Shown here: piece after piece, positions 2,145-49,400 of the stretch
Layout of the letters: every line of letters starts with the position of its first letter
Numbering within the stretch: position 1 is the stretch's first letter
Assembly (NCBI GenBank): GCA_016285645.1
Contig: JAEERC010000044.1
Span: 35,040-99,039 of the forward strand
DNA: 64,000 nt
Source of the DNA: Clostridiaceae bacterium
GTDB lineage: Bacteria > Bacillota > Clostridia > Oscillospirales > Acutalibacteraceae
Reading direction: 5' to 3'
Made by a program: the position numbers and the translations under genes
Notes under the pieces: model-generated
What the model was told of the DNA's origin: nothing
Seen by the model: only the letters and a program-made list of their open reading frames with translations
Database searches by the model: none

Positions 2145-2218
2145 GCGGGTGTAGTTCAACGGTAGAATCCCAGCCTTCCAAGCTGGTCGCGTGGGTTCGA
2201 TTCCCATCACCCGCTCCA
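2145..2218 (+). tRNA. tRNA-Gly(TCC)
   Basis: Cloverleaf GCGGGTG...CACCCGC, anticodon loop CTTCCAA, GGTTCGATTCC T-arm, encoded CCA. Confidence 0.97.
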
Positions 2219-2249
2219 AAAAATCCTGCCGTAAAACGGCGGGATTTTT
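2219..2249 (+). terminator. Rho-independent terminator after tRNA-Gly
   Basis: aaaaatcctgccgt-aaa-acggcgggattttt hairpin plus U tract. Confidence 0.8.
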
Positions 2250-2309
2250 CTTTTTCTGTTTATTATTTATACTTGAAAATCCGGATGAAATTAAAAGCGA
2301 AATATCATC

Positions 2310-2338
2310 TTGACAAAACAAAAACCTTAATATATAAT
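2310..2338 (+). promoter_or_regulatory. Sigma-A promoter of tRNA-Arg-His-Gln cluster
   Basis: TTGACA (2310) -17 bp- TATAAT (2333). Confidence 0.85.
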
Positions 2339-2361
2339 TATCAAGCGGTTTTTAAGAATAT

Positions 2362-2438
<77 letters not shown>

Positions 2439-2441
2439 TAT

Positions 2442-2519
2442 GGTGGTTATAGCTCAGTTGGTTAGAGTGCCAGGTTGTGGCCCTGGAGGTCGTGGGTTCG
2501 ACTCCCACTAACCACCCCA
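2442..2519 (+). tRNA. tRNA-His(GTG)
   Basis: G-1:C73 pair, anticodon loop TTGTGGC, GGTTCGACTCC T-arm, CCA end. Confidence 0.97.
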
Positions 2520-2569
2520 TTAAAGAATTACGCAAGGCATATCTTAAAGCCCTGCGTTTTTTGTTATAT

Positions 2570-2644
2570 TGGGGTGTCGCCAAGCGGTAAGGCAAAGGAC
2601 TTTGACTCCTTCACTCGTGCGTTCGAATCGCGCCACCCCAGCCA
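2570..2644 (+). tRNA. tRNA-Gln(TTG)
   Basis: TGGGGTG...CACCCCA stem, anticodon loop CTTTGAC, CCA end. Confidence 0.95.
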
Positions 2645-3360: not shown

Positions 3361-3548
3361 AAAAACGCCCCGCCTTGCCGATGCGCCGACAGTAACCTGC
3401 TCTCAGCAGGTGGGTGCCTCCCGGTGATTTCGCGCTCCCTTCGTCCGCCTGAGCGGGAGGTCTGCAGTCCCTCACCGGAGACCGGCTCCCTATAAATTAC
3501 GTGTTGGGTTACTTCTTGGTCGCATTTATCGCACAAGGCAGGGTCTTT
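3361..3548 (-). ncRNA. ssrS: 6S RNA
   Basis: Minus strand ~185 nt rod: 5' GACCCTGCCTTGTGCG pairs with 3' GCATCGGCAAGGCGGGG; contains GGGAGCC and GGCACCCACCTGCTGAGAGCAGGTT, matching the conserved Firmicute 6S core. Confidence 0.85.
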
Positions 3549-23781: not shown

Positions 23782-23866
23782 GCGGGTATGGTGAAACTGG
23801 CAAACACGCCGGATTTAGGATCCGGTGGAGCAATCCTTGCAGGTTCAAGTCCTGTTACCCGCACCA
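23782..23866 (+). tRNA. tRNA-Leu(TAG)
   Basis: GCGGGTA...TACCCGC stem, anticodon loop TTTAGGA, long variable arm, CCA end, 85 nt. Confidence 0.96.
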
Positions 23867-25468: not shown

Positions 25469-25789
25469 GTAGGGGCGGCTTTCCCAAAAGCCGCCGCGTA
25501 GGGAACGCCGTTCGGCGTTCCGGGCAAAACAAGGTTTTGCCGCCGTAGGGGCGGATATTATCCGCCCGCAACAAGGCATCCGTTAGGACATAAATTTTGC
25601 GCAGACTCCTTTACGCCGTGCCACCTGTCTCGCCTGCCGGCTCGGTCGGTGCTTCTGCCTTCGGCAGAGGTTCCCACCGGGAACCCGCACCCCCAAAGGA
25701 GGAGCCCACGACGGACGGATATTTTGATATATATAAACGGCGGGATGTGGTCATCCCGCCCTACAAGTTATATTTATCTTGCGATAACC
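25469..25789. repeat. REP-like mosaic cluster A (GTAG-tagged palindromes)
   Basis: GTAGGGGCGGCTTTCCCAAAAGCCGCC, GTAGGGAACGCCGTTCGGCGTTCC, GTAGGGGCGGATATTATCCGCCC and inverted GGCGGGATGTGGTCATCCCGCCCTAC; homologous to 48440-48831. Confidence 0.9.
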
Positions 25790-25890
25790 TCAATTCGTTG
25801 TCCCCATTTCCTCTGTTTTCCGCATAATTCTATTGAGTTTTCCCTGTTTATCATTTATAATAATTGCTGAATTGTGCGGAGGGGTTATTG

Positions 25891-27663
25891 ATGAAAACTG
25901 ATAAAAACACGAACGCTTTGAATGCGGAAAACACAAACGAAAGCTCGGGCGCGCTTCTCAGAAAGGCGGTTAAAAAGAACGCTAAATATCTCGTCGGCAT
26001 TGTTCTTTTCTCCGTCGTAACCGCGGGCTTCACCGCTGTCAATCCCGTTTTTTACAAAAAAATAATTGACGAAGCCATTCCGAACAGGGATATAAAAACC
26101 CTGCTTTTCTGTGTAGCGCTGATGGCGGCGTTTCCCGTTGTAAATGTGGGAATATCGCTGCTGAGGCAAAGGTGCGTTTTTAATTTTACGGATAAATGCG
26201 AAAGGGAACTGAGAACTCAGTTTTTCGCTAAAATACTGAGAATGAACTACCCCGCTTTTATGGAGCTCGGGCCCGTAAAACTGATGTCCGTAATCACAAG
26301 AAGCACGGGTCGGATAATCGAATTGTTTTTAAGCACCGATGTAATAACCGGCGTGTCCGCTGTTTTTCAGTCGCTGCTTATCTTCGGAATAATTTTCCGT
26401 TACAACAAAATCATCGCGGCAGTCACCTTTGTTGTGGTTCCCGTCATTTTTATCGCCATAAAATTTTTCCAGGATAAAATCGGAAACCTGCAAAAAGATT
26501 ATCTCCGCATTCTGAACAGGGGTGAAAAATTCTTTCTGCAGGTGTTCAACGGTATGAAAACCGTGCGTTCCTATTCCGGGCAGGAAAAAGAAAAGGCGGG
26601 GCTTAAGCAGTGGCTCGATGAGGTTTCAAAGAACAAATGGGATATTGAAAAGTCCAATATAACCGTCAGGACTTTTATTCCTGTGGCGGCGGCTCAGGTT
26701 GTGCTCGGTGGCATATTCACTTTCTGCGCCTTCTCGGTTATGAAGGACACAATGACAATAGGAATACTGGTAGCGGTTATCACTTATGTTCCGATGCTGA
26801 TAAACAGTATTCAGAGTATATTGAATATGGGAATCGGGAAAATATCCATTTCGAAAATCCTAGACGACCTCGATTCAATTCTCAACGAGGAGGATGAGTA
26901 TGACGGCGGGAACAAAGACGAAATCCCGAACAGCGGCTCACTCGCCTTTAAGGATGTTGACTTCACCTACGGCAGGGAAAACTTCGACCTGAAGATTGAA
27001 AACCTCGAGATTGAAGAGGGCGATTTTGTAACCATAGTGGGCACAACGGGCGGCGGAAAATCCTCCGTAATGGATATAATCAACAAGTATTATCCCATAA
27101 CTTCGGGCAGCGTTTCGTTTGACGGCGTAAGCATTGACGAGATAGGCACCGACACTTTACGCAGGCATATAAGCACTATGTTCCAGGATGTGTATATGTT
27201 CAACGGCACAATAGCGGAGAACATCGCCTACCCCGGAAAGCCCGATCCGGACAGAGTAAATGAGGTTATGGAAAAAGCGCAGCTGACGGAGTTTGTCGGC
27301 AAACTGCCGAACGGGGCACAAGAAATTGTTGAGGCGGACGGCGCGAACTTCTCGGGCGGCGAATGCCAGCGAATCGCCCTCGCCAGAATGCTTTATAAAG
27401 AAGCGGATATTTATCTTCTTGACGAGCCGACAGCCGCTCTGGACGCCAACACATCCAAGGCAATATTCGATGTGCTCGCGGATGAAAACAGAAACGGCAA
27501 AACAATAATTGCTATTACCCACGACGCGGGCAAGGCGACATACGGCAACAAGGTTATTGTTGTCAGCGGCGGCAGAATAATCGAGTACGGCCCGCCCGCG
27601 AAACTTCTGGAACAAAACGGCGCTTTCGCTTCCCTTTACGAAGCGCAGACAAAAATGGATTGA
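25891..27663 (+). CDS. ABC exporter, fused permease/ATPase
   Basis: TM helices plus GTTGGGKS, FSGGECQR, LLDEPT; ATG 25891 after GGAGG. Confidence 0.92.
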   Translation: MKTDKNTNALNAENTNESSGALLRKAVKKNAKYLVGIVLFSVVTAGFTAVNPVFYKKIIDEAIPNRDIKTLLFCVALMAAFPVVNVGISLLRQRCVFNFTDKCERELRTQFFAKILRMNYPAFMELGPVKLMSVITRSTGRIIELFLSTDVITGVSAVFQSLLIFGIIFRYNKIIAAVTFVVVPVIFIAIKFFQDKIGNLQKDYLRILNRGEKFFLQVFNGMKTVRSYSGQEKEKAGLKQWLDEVSKNKWDIEKSNITVRTFIPVAAAQVVLGGIFTFCAFSVMKDTMTIGILVAVITYVPMLINSIQSILNMGIGKISISKILDDLDSILNEEDEYDGGNKDEIPNSGSLAFKDVDFTYGRENFDLKIENLEIEEGDFVTIVGTTGGGKSSVMDIINKYYPITSGSVSFDGVSIDEIGTDTLRRHISTMFQDVYMFNGTIAENIAYPGKPDPDRVNEVMEKAQLTEFVGKLPNGAQEIVEADGANFSGGECQRIALARMLYKEADIYLLDEPTAALDANTSKAIFDVLADENRNGKTIIAITHDAGKATYGNKVIVVSGGRIIEYGPPAKLLEQNGAFASLYEAQTKMD

Positions 27664-27729
27664 GCAGTTTAAAACAGTCATCGGTTGATGGCTGTTTTTT
27701 ATTTTGAAAAAAGCACTTTCGTTATAACC

Positions 27730-28348
27730 GTAGGGCACGGATTCTTCCGTGCCGTTTTGTTTAATTAGCAATGAGAAAGGAGTAATGAGCAATTAAGGGG
27801 CTAACGCCGATTATATAAATGCAGGAAACGCGGAACGGCGTTCCGGGCAAAACACAGTTTTGCAATGTAGGGCACGGATTCTTCCGTGCCGTTTTGTTTA
27901 ATTAGCAATGAGAAAGGAGTAATGAGCAATTAAGGGGCTAACGCCGATTATATAAATGCAGGAAACACGGAACGGCGTTCCGTATGAAACAAAGTTTCAT
28001 GTCATTCCGAGGGAGAAACTTGTTTTGACCGTGGGAATCTCTGCGTTTTCAAGCACTGTCGGGATTGCCACGGCAGTGTGCGCACTGCCTCGCAACGACA
28101 GAATCATTTTCCCGATTCTGTGTCCTCGCGGACATACTTGTCGCGGGCGACAGGTTGTAAGAACCTGCCTGCGGCAGAACCTTGTTACTCGCTCCGCTCG
28201 TAATATGCCCCTACGGCGGAGATTTCATTTAAGCATTCACGACAGACGGATATTTTGATATAATTAAACGGCGGGATTAGGGAATCCCGCCCTACGGTGA
28301 AAAACGAAATAATGCGGTAACTTGCGGGCGGCAGGTTGCCGCCCCTAC
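27730..28348. repeat. REP-like mosaic cluster B (GTAG and GTCATT-type palindromes, 137-bp-period tandem duplication)
   Basis: GTAGGGCACGGATTCTTCCGTGCC at 27730 and 27867; GTCATTCCGAG...GCAACGAC at 28001-28099; homologous to cluster D (inverted) and partly to A. Confidence 0.9.
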
Positions 28349-28812: not shown

Positions 28813-29613
28813 TTATCCGCAGTGCTTTTTAAACTCGCTTTCAGCCCACACCCGCATAGCGACGGGGGCGTTGTAGAGCACGGTTGCCCAGTAGGAGCGC
28901 TGGTTCACAATTTCGCCGCTCCCGGCGAGGGCGTTGTCTATGGCAAAACTTATAACATCGCTGTCAATCTGCCTGTATCTTTCAATTATATTCTCAAGCG
29001 GGATATCGCAACCGTTTATCCTCTCGGTCTTTCTGCCGCCCGACATTATCTCCGCCACTATGGTGCAAATCGGGTCAAGTATATCCTCACCGTAGGTGTC
29101 GGCGAGAATTTCATAATCAATACGCCATTTGAATTCCTCCTTCATCATTTCAAAAATGTTATTATGATGAGTGATTGATTGTTCAGGATTAATATTGTTG
29201 GAATTATTAATTGATATATTATTTGATTGTGTGCCGTTTTGTAACGATTCACCGTGCGCGGGTTCGTTTTGTAATGATTCGCTTTTGAAAGATTCGCTTT
29301 CGCTTCCCGCCGCGGGGTTCTGAGGGGTTTCGAAAACGCTCCATTCGCCGCAGGAAAAATGCCCGCCGCTGTGAACGGGACCCGTCCGTTTTAAATAGCC
29401 CGCTTTTTCCAGTTCCGTTACAGCCGCCCTCACGCTTCTCACTCCGTCCGCGCACAGCGTTGAAAGCCCCCTTACGCTGAAATTCCAGGTATCGGGCAGC
29501 GAGAAAATGAGATAATAGAGCCCCAGCGCCCTGAGGGAAATGCTCCTTCCTCTTAAAATACCGTTCGGAACAGCCGCGAAGCCCGTGTTCCCCGTTCTGA
29601 ATGTCTTTTTCAA
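28813..29613 (-). CDS. HTH replication-initiator-like protein with DUF6017-like C-terminus (ICE/phage type)
   Basis: TTG start after AAGGAGG; GFAAVPNGILR..ISLRALGLY...LPDTWNFSVRGL...AVTELEKAGYL; C-terminal IDY..L...I.NQRSYWATVLYNAP. Confidence 0.75.
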   Translation of the reverse strand: MKKTFRTGNTGFAAVPNGILRGRSISLRALGLYYLIFSLPDTWNFSVRGLSTLCADGVRSVRAAVTELEKAGYLKRTGPVHSGGHFSCGEWSVFETPQNPAAGSESESFKSESLQNEPAHGESLQNGTQSNNISINNSNNINPEQSITHHNNIFEMMKEEFKWRIDYEILADTYGEDILDPICTIVAEIMSGGRKTERINGCDIPLENIIERYRQIDSDVISFAIDNALAGSGEIVNQRSYWATVLYNAPVAMRVWAESEFKKHCG

Positions 29614-29761
29614 TTTGCAGTCCTCCTTAAAAGTCCTTTCATTTATAATCAAAACAGGGGTGTTTTGTGACGTTTTTACTTCAAATTTCACAAGGACGAT
29701 AATTGAATTATCATTTTCCGTTTGATATAATATGAGAGAAAAAACAAAAAGGAGACGAGCC

Positions 29762-31144
29762 GTGAAGAACAATCATTACAATTGGAATTACGACTATTCG
29801 CAGACGCTTTGGATGAAGATGTTTTTGGCGAGACCCGATTTCAGAAACAACCGTTCCGAGGTGCTTATCACCTTTGAGCAGGCGCTTGACATCATAAAAA
29901 CCGTTGACGCTCTCACTCAGGGAATCACCAAAATAATCTACCTCGTCGGCTGGCAGGGGCTGGGTCACGACGACTGCTTCCCCGAAATGGAGGTTGTAAA
30001 CGATTATCTCAAGCGGGAGTGCGACAAAGACGGCAGGGAGAGTCTCTGTTGGCTTTTCAATGAGGCGAAAAAATACAACACGGTTGTAAGCTTTCACGGC
30101 AACCTTGCCGACGCCTATTCGCAGAACCCCTCGCACGAAGAATTCGTCAAAGCGAACGCGCTGTGCAACGGGATTGACGGGAAGCCCGCGGTGATAGAAA
30201 GATTCAACGACAGGGACGCCTTCAAAACGAGTTATAAGCAGTATTGGGAGAGCGGTCTTTTCAAAAAATACTGGGACAGGTTCTGTGAAGCGGTTCCGGT
30301 AATCGAGGCGGGCACGGTTCACCTGGACAATTACTGCGTGGCGCAGAGCTTAAACCCCTACACCACGGCGCAGGAAGACATTGAGGCGCGCAACAAAATG
30401 CTCGACTATATCGCCTCGCTCGGCATTGACGTCACCACGGAGTACACCTACCGCGAGGCGGAACTGAGAGCCGAAAGCCACAAGCACCCGATTCATTATC
30501 TCTACCGCACAACGGGCAAGCCCATACCCGAGGTTGACTGGCGAAGCGTTCCGATGCACACACTGGGCAGAATTCCCGCCTCCTGGTGGACGAACAATAT
30601 AACGGCCGCCGAATGCGTGAACATTCCCCCTGCCCTTTACAGCGGACATCTTACGGATTCAGCCCTGCTCGCGGTGTTTTACGGGGCGATGCACGGCGAG
30701 GATATATGGATGGAACACGGCGTAAAAACCGAGAACTGGGCGGATGAGTTCCTTTATCAGTTCTGCACGCTTCAGCTGCCGTATTTTTATTTGAACCGTT
30801 ACGACAGGGTCAACATCGTGCCCGACGGCGAGGATTATATCGCTTATTTTTCTGATGATATTGTAAGTTACGGCAAAACGGGAACGATTGTGAAAAACGG
30901 CGTTATGCTCAAAGAGGGAAATGATGTGTGCCTGCCGCTCGATAAGGAATGCGAAACCTTCATCGCCTACTCCGAAAACGGCAGAAGCGGCGAATGGTTT
31001 ATGCCTGACGCCCGGTTTGAAAAAGCGAAGATTTACGAAATCACGACGGACTCGAACAAATATATCGGGGAAGCGGACATCAGGGGCGGAAAAATAAGTC
31101 TTACTCTCGCCCCCAGTCAGGCATTTGTGATAAAAGCGGAGTGA
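29762..31144 (+). CDS. Glycoside hydrolase, endo-alpha-N-acetylgalactosaminidase (GH101-like) family
   Basis: GTG start after AAGGAG; TFEQALDIIK..D..T.G..KIIYLVGWQ..GHD..FP, VSFHGN..DAY, VHLDNY. Confidence 0.6.
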   Translation: MKNNHYNWNYDYSQTLWMKMFLARPDFRNNRSEVLITFEQALDIIKTVDALTQGITKIIYLVGWQGLGHDDCFPEMEVVNDYLKRECDKDGRESLCWLFNEAKKYNTVVSFHGNLADAYSQNPSHEEFVKANALCNGIDGKPAVIERFNDRDAFKTSYKQYWESGLFKKYWDRFCEAVPVIEAGTVHLDNYCVAQSLNPYTTAQEDIEARNKMLDYIASLGIDVTTEYTYREAELRAESHKHPIHYLYRTTGKPIPEVDWRSVPMHTLGRIPASWWTNNITAAECVNIPPALYSGHLTDSALLAVFYGAMHGEDIWMEHGVKTENWADEFLYQFCTLQLPYFYLNRYDRVNIVPDGEDYIAYFSDDIVSYGKTGTIVKNGVMLKEGNDVCLPLDKECETFIAYSENGRSGEWFMPDARFEKAKIYEITTDSNKYIGEADIRGGKISLTLAPSQAFVIKAE

Positions 31145-34401: not shown

Positions 34402-35034
34402 GCAGGGCGACAGATTGTCGCCCTTTTTTAATGACAAATTCCAAATTCCCAATTCCGAATTAAAGGGCGCAGGGCGTCGGATAATATCGCCACACCCGTC
34501 TTGTTCGCTTCGCTCACAATCCACCCTCTCCGTTCTCGGAGAGGGCTATAAGCACATTACCGCAAACCAACCGTTAACAACCGTAGAGCACGGATATATC
34601 CGTGCCGTAATGTCATTCCGAGGGAGTGAAACGGCCGTGGGAATCTCACATTTAAAGGGATGTTTCAATAATAATCGGAGATTGCCACACCGTTGTTCGC
34701 AACGGTTCGCAATGACATCCGCTTTGCGGATTATACGTCCTCACGGACGGTCGCTAAACGAAACGCATATATGCGTTCCCTACGGTGAGAAACAAGTTTT
34801 ATGTTTACAATAGCCCTCTCCGAGAACGGAGAGGGTGGCGCGACGACGCAAAGCGGAGGAGTGACGGGTGTGGCGAAAAGCGAATCAGACATACATTGCA
34901 AATCTCCGTTTTGCCCGGAACGCCGGACGGCGTTCTCTACGGTGAGAAACAAGTTTTATGTTTAAAAAAGTTCACTCGATGAAAGCACAAAAACGAAGAG
35001 GTGCGGGTCTCCGCCTTCAAGCCCGCGCCCCTGC
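34402..35034. repeat. REP-like mosaic cluster C with long inverted arms
   Basis: 29-bp perfect IR 34521-34549 / 34810-34838; 14-bp IR 34487-34500 / 34863-34876; GTCATTCCGAG...GCAATGAC core 34612-34716; 28-bp direct repeat at 34780 and 34937. Confidence 0.88.
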
Positions 35035-41659: not shown

Positions 41660-42076
41660 GGGTATTTGTCGGCGCAGCGGTCAAAACTTGCAGGCGCTCC
41701 AAGTCGTAAGCAAGTTTTGGGCACCGCAAGAGGGCAGGTTATTGTCGCCCGCAACACGACCGTCCGCGAGGACACAGAATCGGCGAAACGATTCTGTCAT
41801 TGCGAGGCAGTGCGCACACTGCCGTGGCAATCTCGACAATTGTTGTAAAATAAACAGAGATTCCCACGGTCGAAACATGTTTCTCCCTCGGAATGACATA
41901 AAATACAGTTTCATCCGGAACGCCGGACGGCGTTCCCTGCATTTATAATCGGCGAAGCTCATAAATTACTCATTTCGCATTGCTCATTTCTCATTATAAA
42001 ACGGCACGGAAGAATCCGTGCCCTACGGTAAAAATGGATATTGCGGAAAACAGCGGGCGCAGGCTGCCGCCCCTGT
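41660..42076. repeat. REP-like mosaic cluster D (inverted homologue of cluster B)
   Basis: Minus-strand GTAGGGCACGGATTCTTCCGTGCC (42026), heptamer tract, GCAGGGAACGCCGTCCGGCGTTCC, GTCATTCCGAG...GCAATGAC (41897-41796). Confidence 0.9.
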
Positions 42077-47784: not shown

Positions 47785-48351
47785 ATGAATGTTTACGATT
47801 TTGACAACACGATTTACGACGGCGAGACCCTCGTTGACATAGTCGCCTTTTTCGCGAAACGCGACCCGAAAGTGCTGCGCTATATACCGAAACTGCTCGT
47901 TCTCTGGGGCAAAGAGGTGTTTCACTTTTTCACAATCGAGGAGGCGCTCAGCGCGTTCAGCGGTTTTCTCGAGGGCTATTTCGTGACCATTACCGATATG
48001 GACAAACAGATAGTCGAGTTCTGGAACAAAAACGAGAAAAAGATAAAGCCGTTTTACAATGAGATACGCAGGGATGACGACGTGATTGTATCCGGCACAA
48101 CGGATTTCATACTTGAGGAGATTGCGAAAAGAATCGGGATAAAGAATTATATCTGCTCCTCAATCGACAGCAAAACGGGCAAGTTCATCCGCCTTTGTTA
48201 CAGAGAGAACAAGGTTGAGGCGTTTTACGAGCGCTTTCCCGGCGCTCACATTGAGAATTTTTACACAGATTCCATGAACGACAAGCCGATGATGGACATA
48301 AGCGACCATGTTTTTATTGTGAAGAAAAACAAAATAACGCAGATTAAATAA
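47785..48351 (+). CDS. HAD-IB family phosphatase
   Basis: VYDFDNTIY motif I, VSGT, FYTDSMND.PM. Confidence 0.85.
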   Translation: MNVYDFDNTIYDGETLVDIVAFFAKRDPKVLRYIPKLLVLWGKEVFHFFTIEEALSAFSGFLEGYFVTITDMDKQIVEFWNKNEKKIKPFYNEIRRDDDVIVSGTTDFILEEIAKRIGIKNYICSSIDSKTGKFIRLCYRENKVEAFYERFPGAHIENFYTDSMNDKPMMDISDHVFIVKKNKITQIK

Positions 48352-48354
48352 CAG

Positions 48355-48923
48355 AAAATCCACCCGATAAGGGTGGATTTTTCAATGAGCAGTGAGGAGT
48401 GAGAAGTGAGGAATTGAGGGAGGGCTGCGCCCTCACCCGTTTATATGTCCTCGCGGACGTCCTTGCGGCGGGCGGATAATATCCGCCCCTACGGCGGCAA
48501 AACCTTGTTTTGCCCGGAACGCCGAACGGCGTTCCCTACGCGGCGGCTTTGGGGAAAGCCGCCCTACGGTTACAACAAGATTCATATAGTTTGCAGGGCG
48601 GGATGACCACATCCCGCCGTTTATAGAAATCAAAATTTCCCTCCGTCGTGGGCTCCTCCTTTGGGGGTGCGGGTTCCCGGTGGGAACCTCTGCCGAAGGC
48701 AGAAGCACCGACCGAGCCGGCAGGCGAGACAGGTGGCACGGTGTTGCAATGCAACATCGTGACGGAAGGAGTCTGCATATGTTTTGTCCTCGCGGACATC
48801 CTTGTTGCGGGCGGATAATATCCGCCCCTACGGCATATAATCGGCACAAAGTGCCCCTTAACTACTCATTTCTCCTTTCTCATTACTCATTACATAAAAA
48901 ATCCACCCGATAAGGGTGGATTT
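48355..48923. mobile_element. Putative non-autonomous REP/heptamer element (cluster E, 48381-48897) flanked by a 26-bp duplicated terminator
   Basis: AAAATCCACCCGATAAGGGTGGATTT at 48355-48380 and 48898-48923; inward heptamer tracts; GTAG-tagged palindromes homologous to cluster A. Confidence 0.7.
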
Positions 48924-48929
48924 GTTTTT

Positions 48930-49400
48930 TCAGTCTTCGAATGTGTCGTCCTTGTTTTTCTTTGTTTTCTTTCTCTTTGCCTTGCCGGCTTCCGCGGCTT
49001 CCTCAATCTTCTTGTTTTTCTCCGCTTCCGCCGCTTCCTTTGCAGCCGCCTTCTCGGCTTCCGCCTTTTCCATGGCGGTATTGTTGGTTGAAACCGCCCA
49101 GCGCGTAATCTTCATTTTGTTGCGGTCCGCGCCCGTTTCAATAACAAGAGAATCCTCTTTTACGGTTACGACTCTGCCCATAATGCCGCCGATTGTGGTT
49201 ATTTCATCGCCGACCTGGATGCTGTCGCGCATCTCCTGCTCCTGCTGCTGCTTTTTCTTCTGCGGTCTTATCATAATGAAATACATTACCGCGAACATCG
49301 CGACAAGCATGATTATCATTGTGTAGCTTGATTTACCGTTGGCTGTGGTTGTGGTGGTTCCACCGCCGAATAAAAGGGGCATTGTTGTTAAGAAATTCAT
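48930..49400 (-). CDS. yajC: Preprotein translocase subunit YajC
   Basis: MYFIMIRPQKKKQ, GDEITTIGGIMGRV, I.RWAV; ATG 49400 after GGAGG. Confidence 0.93.
   Translation of the reverse strand: MNFLTTMPLLFGGGTTTTTANGKSSYTMIIMLVAMFAVMYFIMIRPQKKKQQQEQEMRDSIQVGDEITTIGGIMGRVVTVKEDSLVIETGADRNKMKITRWAVSTNNTAMEKAEAEKAAAKEAAEAEKNKKIEEAAEAGKAKRKKTKKNKDDTFED

What the first reader, a model, noticed from the sequence alone, without database searches (positions are those of the whole stretch)
48355..48923. A 517-bp REP/heptamer cassette bracketed by a duplicated transcription terminator
Seen: the 26-bp terminator hairpin AAAATCCACCCGATAAGGGTGGATTT occurs exactly twice (48355-48380 and 48898-48923), between the convergent HAD and yajC genes. 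Between the copies are a heptamer tract (AATGAGC AGTGAGG AGTGAGA AGTGAGG), four types of GTAG-tagged palindromes plus a long conserved body, and an oppositely oriented heptamer tract. Known: GTAG-tagged REPs are substrates of HUH TnpA(REP)/RAYT enzymes, and these are not known to produce long target duplications. Inference: this is a discrete non-autonomous element that inserted at, and duplicated, a palindromic terminator, so both flanking genes keep termination. That would be a terminator-targeting safe-harbour insertion strategy.
Basis: partly seen in the sequence, partly recalled or inferred. Interest (0 to 1): 0.78.

Follow-up and report, generated by a model that had tools for sequence, protein, structure and literature searches.

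The report
Repeat cluster between duplicated terminator hairpins
Two identical copies of one terminator hairpin really do bracket a patch of small hairpin repeats between two converging genes of a rumen bacterium, but the patch is a fast-changing mosaic of several independent mini-elements, not one discrete transposon, and whether an insertion made the duplication cannot be shown.

Summary
The 26-mer occurs exactly twice, in direct orientation, flanking 517 bp between convergent HAD and yajC genes. Five independent assemblies span it, so it is not an artefact.

The interior is not one element:
- Seven spanning assemblies of the same species give six length alleles, 204-805 bp hairpin to hairpin.
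- A 63-nt core and a REP module are present or absent between strains.
- A 339-bp unit is partly duplicated.

The two heptamer ends are diverged copies (62% alike) of a widespread "T module": a heptamer array followed by a TTAAGGGGC..GCCGATTATA hairpin. In unrelated gut contigs this module often sits just after a terminator. Comparable module pairs elsewhere carry no flank duplication; one sits between two different terminators.

No empty site was found in 8 metagenomes or in relatives, because the cassette lies at a synteny breakpoint. The two hairpin copies share loop alleles across strains (GATAA, GCGA, GAAAA each at both positions), which indicates exchange between them. No transposase or recombinase lies in the window.

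Verdict: a BIME-like repeat cluster bounded by a real one-off terminator duplication. A terminator-targeting strategy is only partly supported.

The parts
47785..48351 (+). HAD-family hydrolase gene; its stop codon lies 3 nt before the left hairpin
   Evidence: ORF; PF12710 on the identical protein
48355..48380 (.). Left copy of the 26-nt terminator hairpin (11-bp stem, loop GATAA), followed by TTTTTC
   Evidence: The contig carrying it with HAD is at single-copy depth. Loop alleles GATAA, GCGA and GAAAA occur among strains
48381..48446 (+). T1 module: four heptamers (48384-48411), a GC hairpin GAGGGAGGGCTGCGCCCTCACCC (48416-48438) and GTTTATAT
   Evidence: Heptamer number varies from 2 to 4 among strains. 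The tract is multi-copy, while the inner hairpin is at single-copy depth in runs X3 and X5
48447..48495 (+). GTCCTCGCGGAC mini-hairpin plus REP1 (first copy of the 50-nt repeat D1, which starts at 48446 inside the T1 tail)
   Evidence: D1, 94% identical, spacing 339
48470..48492 (-). REP1, GTAG-tagged hairpin GTAGGGGCGGATATTATCCGCCC
   Evidence: further copies at 48809-48831 and 25545
48496..48567 (-). REP2 (untagged, 48496-48514), REP3 (48516-48539) and REP4 (48542-48567); REP3 and REP4 are GTAG-tagged
   Evidence: The same run of modules is 94-99% identical at 25473-25592. REP2 and REP3 are replaced by variants in L172 and L173
48593..48618 (+). REPx hairpin (GCAG variant of GTAGGGCGGGATG..CATCCCGCC), lying within the insertion/deletion-polymorphic stretch 48581-48644
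   Evidence: The 48581-48644 stretch is absent in L003. Contigs skip about the same stretch: 48580->48645 in X2, and 48579->48645 and 48580->48637 in X30
48644..48741 (+). Host hairpin H1 (arms 48644-48667 and 48731-48741) interrupted by the 63-nt core
   Evidence: The uninterrupted form CCTCCATTGGGGG|AGGTGGCACGG is present in L003, L172 and L173
48668..48730 (+). 63-nt core mini-element TGCGGG...GCGAGAC, inserted 3' of a G-run with no target duplication
   Evidence: Contigs skip exactly 63 nt with no shared letters (X2; X27). It sits in other hairpins in L159, L172, L173, L164 and L137. Binned depth over the core is about 100-200 times that of the flanking genes, more in the peak bin of some runs. 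It occurs in phages and 15 viral contigs. Its fold is conserved, with 5 of 20 pairs showing compensatory changes
48742..48776 (+). Variable hairpin (TGTTGCAATGCAACA) and a conserved tail GACGGAAGGAGTCTGC
   Evidence: The hairpin is replaced by other hairpins in L004, L156, L174 and in metagenome loose ends
48785..48834 (+). Second copy of D1 (GTCC hairpin plus REP1); start of a partial second 339-bp unit
   Evidence: L001 keeps a single D1 copy, consistent with loss of the 339-bp unit by recombination between the two D1 copies (hairpin spacing 204 against 543)
48835..48897 (-). T2 module (inverted): ACATAA end, four heptamers (48862-48893), TTAAGGGGCACTTTGTGCCGATTATAT
   Evidence: It matches the family pattern. 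It is 62% identical to T1 overall and 74% in the tract. Multi-copy depth stops at 48893-48897
48898..48923 (.). Right copy of the 26-nt terminator hairpin, followed by GTTTTTT and then the yajC stop codon
   Evidence: Loop alleles GATAA, GCGA and GAAAA among strains
48930..49400 (-). yajC gene (156 aa), last gene of the queA-tgt-yajC run

Best explanation
The interval is a BIME-like accretion cluster of miniature hairpin repeats. It sits in the spacer between two convergent genes of an uncultured rumen Clostridia bacterium, and two co-evolving direct copies of the host's own bidirectional terminator bound it.

Shown:
- At least three independent repeat kinds are packed here. They are GTAG-tagged REP hairpins, a 63-nt three-hairpin core that inserts 3' of a G-run inside hairpin loops without target duplication, and two diverged 'T modules'.
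- A T module is a heptamer array plus a TTAAGGGGC..GCCGATTATA-type hairpin. Each one points away from the terminator of the gene upstream of it.
- The interior is gained, lost, duplicated and swapped between strains. The two hairpins and the two T modules stay fixed.

Inferred history:
- One ancestral terminator (stop codon, 3 nt, hairpin, 6 nt, stop codon) was duplicated once, before the sampled strains diverged, when the first repeat DNA was lodged there. That DNA was probably a short T-module doublet like the 204-bp allele of L001.
- The duplication was a local accident of break repair or template switching at an extruded palindrome. It is not the standard footprint of the element family.
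- It persisted because each gene kept a terminator.
- The interior then grew by ssDNA-type (HUH/Y1-like) insertions and tandem duplication.
- The two hairpins exchange sequence by gene conversion.
For: - Direct duplication confirmed, with the multi-copy sequence starting and stopping at the tract edges next to the hairpins.
- Six length alleles in seven spanning assemblies, with both hairpins and both T modules constant.
- Exact insertion/deletion of the 63-nt core, and the same core in other hairpins.
- Paralogous modules in four other cassettes of the window, none with a terminator duplication.
- REP rule met, 16 against 0.9 expected.
- T modules occur singly and lie after unrelated unique terminators in L136, L152, L162, L164 and L165.
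- No flank duplication in 59 other inward-facing tract pairs.
- Each loop allele occurs at both copies across strains: window, L002 and L004 GATAA/GATAA; L172 and L173 GCGA/GCGA; L174 GCGA/GATAA; L001 GATAA/GAAAA; L005 left GAAAA.
Against: - No empty site, no donor copy and no enzyme were found, so the origin of the duplication is inference only.
- Gene conversion between repeats of only 26 nt is unusual.
- A homologous hairpin (34 nt, 3 mismatches) exists in another context in metagenome X2. The hairpin may therefore not be strictly private to this locus.
- The cassette sits at a synteny breakpoint relative to the nearest relatives. A rearrangement could have joined two separate hairpins.
Confidence: 0.55

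Rival explanations
1. A discrete non-autonomous element bounded by the two heptamer ends inserts at palindromic terminators by staggered cleavage at the base of the hairpin. It duplicates the whole hairpin as a target-site duplication, and this is a regular safe-harbour strategy.
For: - A direct 26-nt repeat lies exactly outside both inward-facing ends, and collapsing it gives a plausible 35-nt empty site.
- The ends resemble imperfect terminal inverted repeats, 74% alike in the tract.
- T modules lie next to a hairpin plus T-run in 12 of 26 copies.
- Matched loops in most strains would follow from duplication of a variant terminator.
Against: - 0 of 59 other inward-facing tract pairs have flank repeats of 10 nt or more.
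- L136 has two different terminators, and L162 has no hairpin and no duplication at one end.
- T modules occur singly (cassettes B and C, L156).
- T1's inner hairpin is at single-copy depth in X3 and X5, so there is no sign of other copies of this element in those runs.
- The interior is a strain-variable mosaic.
- Mixed-loop strains exist (L174, L001).
- No empty allele in 8 metagenomes.
Confidence: 0.15
2. Rearrangement junction. The GDPD-HAD block and the queA-tgt-yajC block were brought together by a rearrangement through repeat cassettes. Each gene arrived with its own copy of a low-copy terminator module already followed by a T module. Later gene conversion keeps the two copies alike.
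For: - In relatives at about 83% Tgt identity (three species looked at), yajC is followed by a different hairpin and a co-oriented DUF3792 gene, so synteny breaks at the yajC stop codon.
- HAD homologues at 71% identity sit in other contexts with other downstream sequence.
- A similar hairpin plus T-run exists in another context in X2.
- Cassettes flank a strain-specific ABC transporter gene elsewhere in the window.
- L136 shows two independent terminators, each with its own T module.
Against: - The hairpin was found only at this locus in 1.33 Mb of fetched DNA, about 0.3 Mb of it from related Firmicutes, and only twice in the window.
- Two independently derived terminators identical over 26 of 26 nt would need a shared family that was not observed.
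Confidence: 0.2
3. Site-specific integration. The hairpin is the core site of a tyrosine or Xer-type recombinase. A circular element carrying one copy integrated there, leaving attL and attR.
For: - Direct repeats of 26 bp are typical of att sites.
- The arms are 11-bp inverted repeats around a short centre.
- Matched loops occur in most strains.
Against: - Loop length differs between alleles (4 nt GCGA against 5 nt GATAA), which a crossover region would not tolerate.
- No recombinase appears among about 50 window ORFs scanned.
- No circular or excised joint was seen in 8 metagenomes.
- The hairpin has the A-run, stem and T-run of an ordinary terminator.
Confidence: 0.05
4. Assembly artefact: a palindrome-induced misjoin created the second hairpin copy.
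For: One MAG contig (L001) does fold back at an 11-nt inverted repeat just beyond the right hairpin.
Against: - Five independent assemblies from different samples span gene, hairpin, cassette, hairpin and gene.
- Metagenome contigs cover both junctions at single-copy depth.
Confidence: 0.02

Closest known systems
REP / BIME clusters of Proteobacteria, mobilised by RAYT (TnpA-REP) Y1 transposases (PMC3333891, PMC2817692, PMC6006769)
   Same: - GTAG tetranucleotide 0-2 nt 5' of a perfect 7-9 bp stem.
- Strictly extragenic, clustered in mosaics with alternating orientation.
- Several REP types per genome, often between convergent genes.
- Copy number varies between strains.
   Different: - The host is a rumen Clostridia MAG, not a proteobacterium.
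- No RAYT was seen in the window.
- The cluster also holds heptamer T modules and a 63-nt core that are not part of described BIMEs.
- It is bracketed by a duplicated terminator.
IS200/IS605-derived palindrome-associated elements (PATEs) and peel-and-paste ssDNA transposition (PMC6006769)
   Same: The 63-nt core inserts without target duplication, always 3' of a short conserved sequence (a G-run), into single-strand-prone hairpin loops. It has a conserved hairpin structure of its own.
   Different: - It is much smaller than described PATEs.
- No cognate TnpA was identified.
- The target is inside other hairpins.
- It is also carried by phages.
Bacterial MITEs (Correia/NEMIS, RUP, ERIC; reviewed in PMC3184786)
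   Same: Small, non-coding and intergenic, with imperfect inverted ends, and able to supply or alter terminators and promoters.
   Different: - MITEs give short fixed target duplications and occur as many near-identical copies.
- Here the 'ends' are 62% alike, the unit is unique, the repeat is 26 nt, and it is not seen at other pairs.
Group IIC introns, which home just downstream of intrinsic terminators (PMC1702495)
   Same: T modules, like IIC introns, are frequently found just 3' of a hairpin plus T-run and co-oriented with the upstream gene.
   Different: - There is no ribozyme domain, reverse transcriptase or intron boundary. Rfam gives no match.
- T modules are about 65 nt.
- IIC introns do not duplicate the terminator.
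IS elements that target REPs (IS1397, ISKpn1, ISPpu9/10; PMC1525189, PMC12288879)
   Same: Insertion into extragenic palindromes as safe sites.
   Different: Those are autonomous IS elements with transposase genes and short or no target duplication. Nothing here encodes a protein.

Membership tests
REP (repetitive extragenic palindrome) sequences | GTAG or GTGG 0-2 nt 5' of a fully paired stem of at least 7 bp with a loop of 2-5 nt (PMC6006769) | tested here: met
REP (repetitive extragenic palindrome) sequences | Multi-copy, strictly extragenic, clustered in mosaics (BIME-like) | tested here: met
   All 16 lie in five intergenic cassettes (25.5, 27.7-28.4, 34.5-35.0, 41.7-42.1 and 48.4-48.9 kb) that share modules in different orders
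REP (repetitive extragenic palindrome) sequences | A cognate RAYT / TnpA-REP gene in the same genome, usually flanked by REPs | tested here: inconclusive
   No PF01797-type or any transposase hit in about 50 window ORFs. Only 64 kb of the genome was available
MITE (non-autonomous cut-and-paste element) | Terminal inverted repeats shared by many near-identical copies | tested here: not met
   T1 and the reverse complement of T2 are 62% identical. T1's inner hairpin is at single-copy depth in metagenomes X3 and X5. No second T1..T2 unit was found in 1.33 Mb
MITE (non-autonomous cut-and-paste element) | Target-site duplication of constant length at every copy | tested here: not met
   Only the target has a flank repeat; 0 of the other inward-facing tract pairs among 59 do. 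L136 and L162 show none
IS200/IS605-type (HUH, ssDNA) miniature element - applies to the 63-nt core | Insertion without target duplication, 3' of a conserved short target | tested here: met
   Exact 63-nt skip with 0 shared letters. The empty form is present in L003, L172 and L173. The 5' flank is (A/G)GGG(G) in almost every context, more than 10 in all (one viral context has AGGGA and one copy AGAGG), in bacteria and phages
IS200/IS605-type (HUH, ssDNA) miniature element - applies to the 63-nt core | A Y1 transposase acting on its subterminal hairpins | not testable with these tools
   No such gene in the window; no whole genome was available
Integrated element with att-site duplication | A recombinase, and a crossover core of fixed length identical in attL and attR | tested here: not met
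   No recombinase. Loop length is 4 or 5 nt between alleles, and L174 and L001 carry unlike loops
Intrinsic (Rho-independent) terminator | GC-rich stem-loop followed by a T-run, placed just after a stop codon | tested here: met
   Both copies are predicted: the right copy on both strands, the left copy on the - strand by the scan, with the + strand TTTTT tail read from the sequence. Fold -11.6 kcal/mol, z = -6.3. They lie 3 nt after the HAD stop codon and 6 nt after the yajC stop codon
Known structured RNA families (Rfam 15) | Covariance-model match at or near the gathering score | tested here: not met
   Nothing inside the cassette at E <= 1. Only terminator-driven chance hits occur at its edges. 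Nothing on 13 related loci apart from a tmRNA

The most novel reading that the evidence does not exclude
T-module doublets would be a new class of terminator-seeking miniature elements. They share a heptamer array plus a GC hairpin, and are possibly related to the heptamer-array units of gut Bacteroidota. When such a doublet lands on a bidirectional terminator shared by convergent genes, cleavage at the base of the extruded cruciform would duplicate the whole hairpin, so both genes keep termination. This would be a self-insulating insertion mechanism with a palindrome-length target duplication.

A companion claim: the 63-nt core would be one of the smallest mobile DNAs known, moving between bacteria and their phages into hairpin loops.
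Probability: 0.15. Interest if true: 0.8.

Novelty: new variant of a known kind. Interest (0 to 1): 0.5.

Why it matters
If the duplication were a regular insertion footprint, it would describe a new way for mobile DNA to avoid harming its host, by rebuilding a terminator on each side. The evidence does not carry that far.

What stands is still useful:
- REP/BIME-type repeat clusters, studied almost only in Proteobacteria, exist in rumen Clostridia with extra module types.
- These clusters change faster than the flanking genes: there are six length alleles among strains with 98-100% identical neighbouring proteins.
- They sit at synteny breakpoints and around strain-specific genes.
- They break metagenome assemblies.
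- The heptamer T module and the 63-nt core are apparently undescribed. Both are abundant in ruminant gut metagenomes and could serve as markers or as substrates for finding their enzymes.

Tried and rejected
- **Rfam.** I scanned the interval at E <= 1, the whole window, and 13 related loci. Nothing matched inside the cassette.
- **Empty site through HAD homologues.** The nearest are 71% identical and sit in other gene contexts.
- **Empty site through Tgt/yajC relatives.** In the three species looked at, all at about 83% identity, yajC is followed by another hairpin and DUF3792.
- **Empty site or circle junction in metagenomes.** None appeared in 8 runs laid on the locus. One of these, X21, was raw reads sampled at about 6% and gave no reads on the cassette. 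The other seven were assembler contigs, which show presence rather than absence.
- **My one genome-contig scan.** The pattern AATGAGAAAGGAGNAATGAG was too generic.
- **Plasmids.** No match.
- **Phages.** Only the 63-nt core and, in one record, a REP-region stretch (query 100-145) matched.
- **RNA-seq contigs.** They gave no strand or end information.
- **Longer repeat reaching into the HAD stop codon.** A 38-nt, 89% match suggested this. I rejected it because the extra ACATAA is the usual outer end of T modules elsewhere, as in L153 and L156.
- **Hairpins as part of the inverted ends.** I rejected this because the loops are in direct, not inverted, orientation in every strain.
Full report
**Observation**

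The 26-mer AAAATCCACCCGATAAGGGTGGATTT occurs at 48355-48380 and 48898-48923. It occurs nowhere else in the window, even with three mismatches, and never in 100 shuffles. Its stem is palindromic, so orientation can only be read from the loop. Both copies carry GATAA on the + strand, so they are direct repeats and not the arms of an inverted repeat.

The hairpin folds at -11.6 kcal/mol (z = -6.3) and is predicted as a terminator on both strands. It lies 3 nt after the stop codon of a HAD-family gene (47785-48351, +) and 6 nt after the stop codon of yajC (48930-49400, -). The heptamer tracts are at 48384-48411 and, inverted, at 48862-48893.

The organism is an uncultured Clostridia bacterium of ruminant guts, judging from source names and run labels.

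**Not an artefact**

Contigs from five independent assemblies span gene, hairpin, cassette, hairpin and gene: L002, L004, L172, L173 and L174. One MAG contig (L001) folds back at an 11-nt inverted repeat just beyond the right hairpin and is chimeric there.

**Anatomy of the interior**

From left to right:

| Coordinates | Part |
|---|---|
| 48381-48446 | T1 module |
| 48447-48458 | GTCCTCGCGGAC mini-hairpin |
| 48470-48492 | REP1 |
| 48496-48567 | REP2, REP3, REP4 |
| 48593-48618 | REPx, with GCAG here and GTAG in its paralogue |
| 48644-48667 / 48731-48741 | hairpin H1, split by the core |
| 48668-48730 | 63-nt core |
| 48742-48756 | variable hairpin |
| 48786-48831 | second GTCC-REP1 copy |
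| 48835-48897 | T2 module, inverted |

The two GTCC-REP1 copies are 94% identical and 339 bp apart. The interior is therefore 1.15 tandem copies of a 339-bp unit.

By the published REP rule (GTAG or GTGG 0-2 nt before a perfect stem; PMC6006769), the window holds 16 REPs against 0.9 expected. All of them lie in five intergenic cassettes. Those cassettes share modules in different orders and orientations:
- 25473-25789 has the same REP run and the same H1 plus core at 94-99% identity.
- 27727-28295 and 41743-42029 share a second 'body' and T modules.
- None of them has a duplicated terminator.

**The interior is a strain-variable mosaic, not one element**

Seven assemblies of the same species, with neighbouring proteins 98-100% identical, give six hairpin-to-hairpin spacings: 204, 471, 478, 543 (twice), 593 and 805 bp. 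The differences are modular:
- L001 keeps one GTCC-REP1, consistent with loss of the 339-bp unit.
- L003 lacks the stretch 48581-48644 that holds REPx, and also lacks the core.
- L172 has the core inside a different REP and an empty H1.
- L173 has two cores.
- L174 has extra modules.

Metagenome contigs show the same events. One skips exactly 63 nt (48667->48731) with no shared letters, and another skips about 64 nt around REPx. In every strain, T1 stays next to the HAD-side hairpin and T2 next to the yajC-side hairpin. Only their heptamer number drifts.

**The 63-nt core**

The core (TGCGGG...GCGAGAC) sits in several different hosts:
- the H1 loop (window twice, L148, L156, L174);
- the REPx loop, in either orientation (L159, L172, L173);
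- the REP1 stem after GTAGGGG (L164, L137).

It also occurs in two Ruminococcus phages and in 15 IMG/VR contigs, in at least six contexts. The 5' flank is almost always (A/G)GGG(G), and the element ends in GAGAC. There is no target duplication.

Its fold is conserved: a closing TGC/GCA stem, two hairpins and a third small hairpin. Five of 20 pairs show compensatory changes among eight sequences. Its binned word depth in rumen metagenomes is about 100-200 times that of the flanking genes, and more in the peak bin of some runs. This behaviour resembles ssDNA (HUH/Y1) elements of the IS200/IS605 and REP kind. No enzyme was identified.

**The heptamer ends are copies of a widespread 'T module'**

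A metagenome scan for the inner motif TTAAGGGGC-N(3-8)-GCCGATTATA found 40 stretches. About nine lie in coding sequence and are chance matches.

In the true copies the layout is a heptamer array and then the hairpin:
- The heptamer differs by lineage: AATGAGN, AATGCAA, AATTAGG or AGTTGAA.
- The inner stem of the hairpin covaries (GGCAC/GTGCC, GGCGC/GCGCC, GGC/GCC).
- The loops are often UUCG- or GNRA-like.

In 12 of 26 distinct copies a strict hairpin plus T-run ends exactly where the array starts. Five of these are unrelated, locus-specific terminators (L136, L152, L162, L164, L165), apart from the target itself. In the window's own lineage the preceding hairpin is usually one particular GTAG-REP, GGCACGGATTCTTCCGTGCC.

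T modules are co-oriented with the upstream gene. They occur singly (cassettes B and C, L156) or as inward-facing pairs. T1 and T2 are 62% identical overall and 74% in the tract.

A looser heptamer pattern also hits more than 117 stretches in species genomes, mostly gut Bacteroidota. There the usual unit is array, short GC core and inverted array. Apart from the shared heptamers, I did not establish homology with the Firmicutes module.

**Does the family duplicate terminators?**

Depth profiles show that multi-copy sequence starts at about 48381-48385 and stops at 48893-48897. The contigs that carry each hairpin with its adjoining gene are at single-copy depth. A 26-mer is shorter than the assembler's word, so this does not exclude other copies. 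The hairpins are therefore most likely host sequence, and the repeats lie exactly between them.

The duplication is nevertheless unique to this locus:
- Among 59 inward-facing tract pairs in all fetched DNA, only this one has a flank repeat of 10 nt or more.
- The best analogue, L136, is a roughly 170-nt T doublet between convergent genes. It lies between two different terminators.
- L162 has a terminator at one end and a ribosome-binding site at the other, with no duplication.
- T1's inner hairpin is at single-copy depth in two of four metagenomes, so they give no sign of other copies of a T1..T2 element.

**Empty site**

None was found. No contig in eight metagenomes joins 48380 to 48898-48924. 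One of those eight runs gave no coverage of the cassette, and the other seven were assembler contigs, which cannot show absence.

Relatives cannot supply the ancestral state:
- HAD homologues at 71% identity lie in other contexts.
- In relatives at about 83% Tgt identity (three species looked at), queA-tgt-yajC is followed by a different hairpin and a co-oriented DUF3792 gene.
- Synteny therefore breaks at the yajC stop codon, and the cassette sits on a rearrangement breakpoint.

**Concerted evolution of the two hairpins**

| Strain(s) | Left loop | Right loop |
|---|---|---|
| window, L002, L004 | GATAA | GATAA |
| L172, L173 | GCGA | GCGA |
| L174 | GCGA | GATAA |
| L001 | GATAA | GAAAA |
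| L005 and run X2 | GAAAA | not recovered |
| run X7 | not recovered | GCGA |

Each of the three alleles appears at both positions, and GATAA to GCGA is a multi-base change with a length difference. The two copies must therefore exchange sequence, or have been re-formed. The loop-length difference argues against a recombinase crossover core. No strain has an inverted loop.

**Enzymes**

Pfam scans of about 50 window ORFs found only housekeeping genes. There was no Y1 transposase, RAYT or recombinase. Only 64 kb of the genome was available.

**Caveats on uniqueness**

The hairpin occurs only at this locus in 1.33 Mb of fetched DNA. However, one 9.5-kb contig in metagenome X2 carries a 34-nt match (three mismatches) to the right hairpin plus its T-run in another context.

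**Interpretation**

The best-supported reading is a BIME-like cluster of independent miniature hairpin elements. It is lodged between two copies of the host's own bidirectional terminator. The duplication is a single old event tied to the arrival of the first repeat DNA, not a family-typical footprint. It is maintained because each convergent gene needs a terminator, and it is homogenised by exchange between the copies.

A rearrangement that joined two hairpin-bearing loci is a serious rival. Site-specific integration and assembly artefact are unlikely.

**Comparison with known systems**

- The GTAG hairpins meet the REP definition, and the mosaic resembles BIMEs (PMC3333891, PMC2817692). The host phylum, the T modules and the core lie outside what is described.
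- The core works like an IS200/IS605-type miniature element.
- T-module placement recalls group IIC introns, which home downstream of terminators (PMC1702495), but nothing intron-like is present.
- The cassette fails the MITE criteria: there are not many like copies, and no constant target duplication.

Noticed in passing
window 48668-48730 and 25628-25690 (-); L159 about 750-812; L172, L173; L176 1525-1587; L177-L191: A 63-nt three-hairpin mini-element (TGCGGG...GCGAGAC) is present or absent between strains. It inserts 3' of a G-run inside other hairpins without target duplication. Its binned depth in rumen metagenomes is about 100-200 times that of flanking genes, more in the peak bin of some runs. 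It also occurs in Ruminococcus phages and 15 IMG/VR viral contigs. It is not in Rfam.
   Followed up: yes
L136, L152, L162, L164, L165 and other loci L132-L171; window 27768-27830, 27905-27967, 41935-41996: A conserved 'T module' (3-5 heptamers, then a TTAAGGGGC-loop-GCCGATTATA hairpin with a covarying stem) occurs in many unrelated gut contigs. It often starts exactly at the T-run of the upstream gene's terminator. Its function and its enzyme are unknown.
   Followed up: partly
L015-L131 (for example L036, L049, L103, L118; and L027, L030, L057): In gut Bacteroidota (Alloprevotella, Prevotella, Paludibacteraceae), arrays of AATGAGA/AAGGAGA heptamers form small palindromic units just after stop codons. 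In some Prevotella genes the same array appears to lie inside the reading frame at the same position in three species.
   Followed up: no
window 25767-27467 (ABC transporter gene 25864-27663): This gene has zero depth in four rumen metagenomes that carry the flanking genes of the same species. Contigs there join 25764 to 27862. The gene is strain-specific and bracketed by repeat cassettes A and B.
   Followed up: partly
window 27730-27866 and 27867-27997: A 137-bp tandem duplication (95% identical) of the unit REP, T module, REP3. Contigs in two metagenomes show other arrangements (joint 27891->28324).
   Followed up: no
window 34773-34813 and 34930-34970: A repeat of about 30-40 nt (CTACGGTGAGAAACAAGTTTTATGTTTA) follows two different REPs about 157 bp apart. 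This is a second case of direct repeats inside a cassette, here explained by modular composition rather than target duplication.
   Followed up: no
window 48924-48935 compared with L175, L193, L197: Synteny with the nearest sampled relatives (about 83% Tgt identity) ends at the yajC stop codon. They have yajC, DUF3792, a 150-aa gene, then GFO_IDH. This species has the cassette and an inverted GDPD-HAD block.
   Followed up: partly
metagenome run X2, a 9530-nt contig matching window 48897-48930: A 34-nt match (3 mismatches) to the right hairpin plus its T-run lies in an unrelated context at higher depth. The terminator sequence may therefore not be private to this locus.
   Followed up: no
L001 3350-3497: The MAG contig folds back about 40 nt into yajC, at the 11-nt inverted repeat AAGAAAAACAA/TTGTTTTTCTT, and continues into a HAD-like gene in reverse. 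It is probably an assembly chimera.
   Followed up: no
window 28813-29772 (-): An ORF with HTH_36 and DUF6017 domains, both common on Firmicutes mobile elements, lies next to cassette B. It is the only mobile-element-like protein seen in the window.
   Followed up: no
window 2145-2641, 3363-3547, 23782-23863: A cluster of four tRNA genes, a 6S RNA gene (64 bits) and a lone tRNA gene.
   Followed up: no
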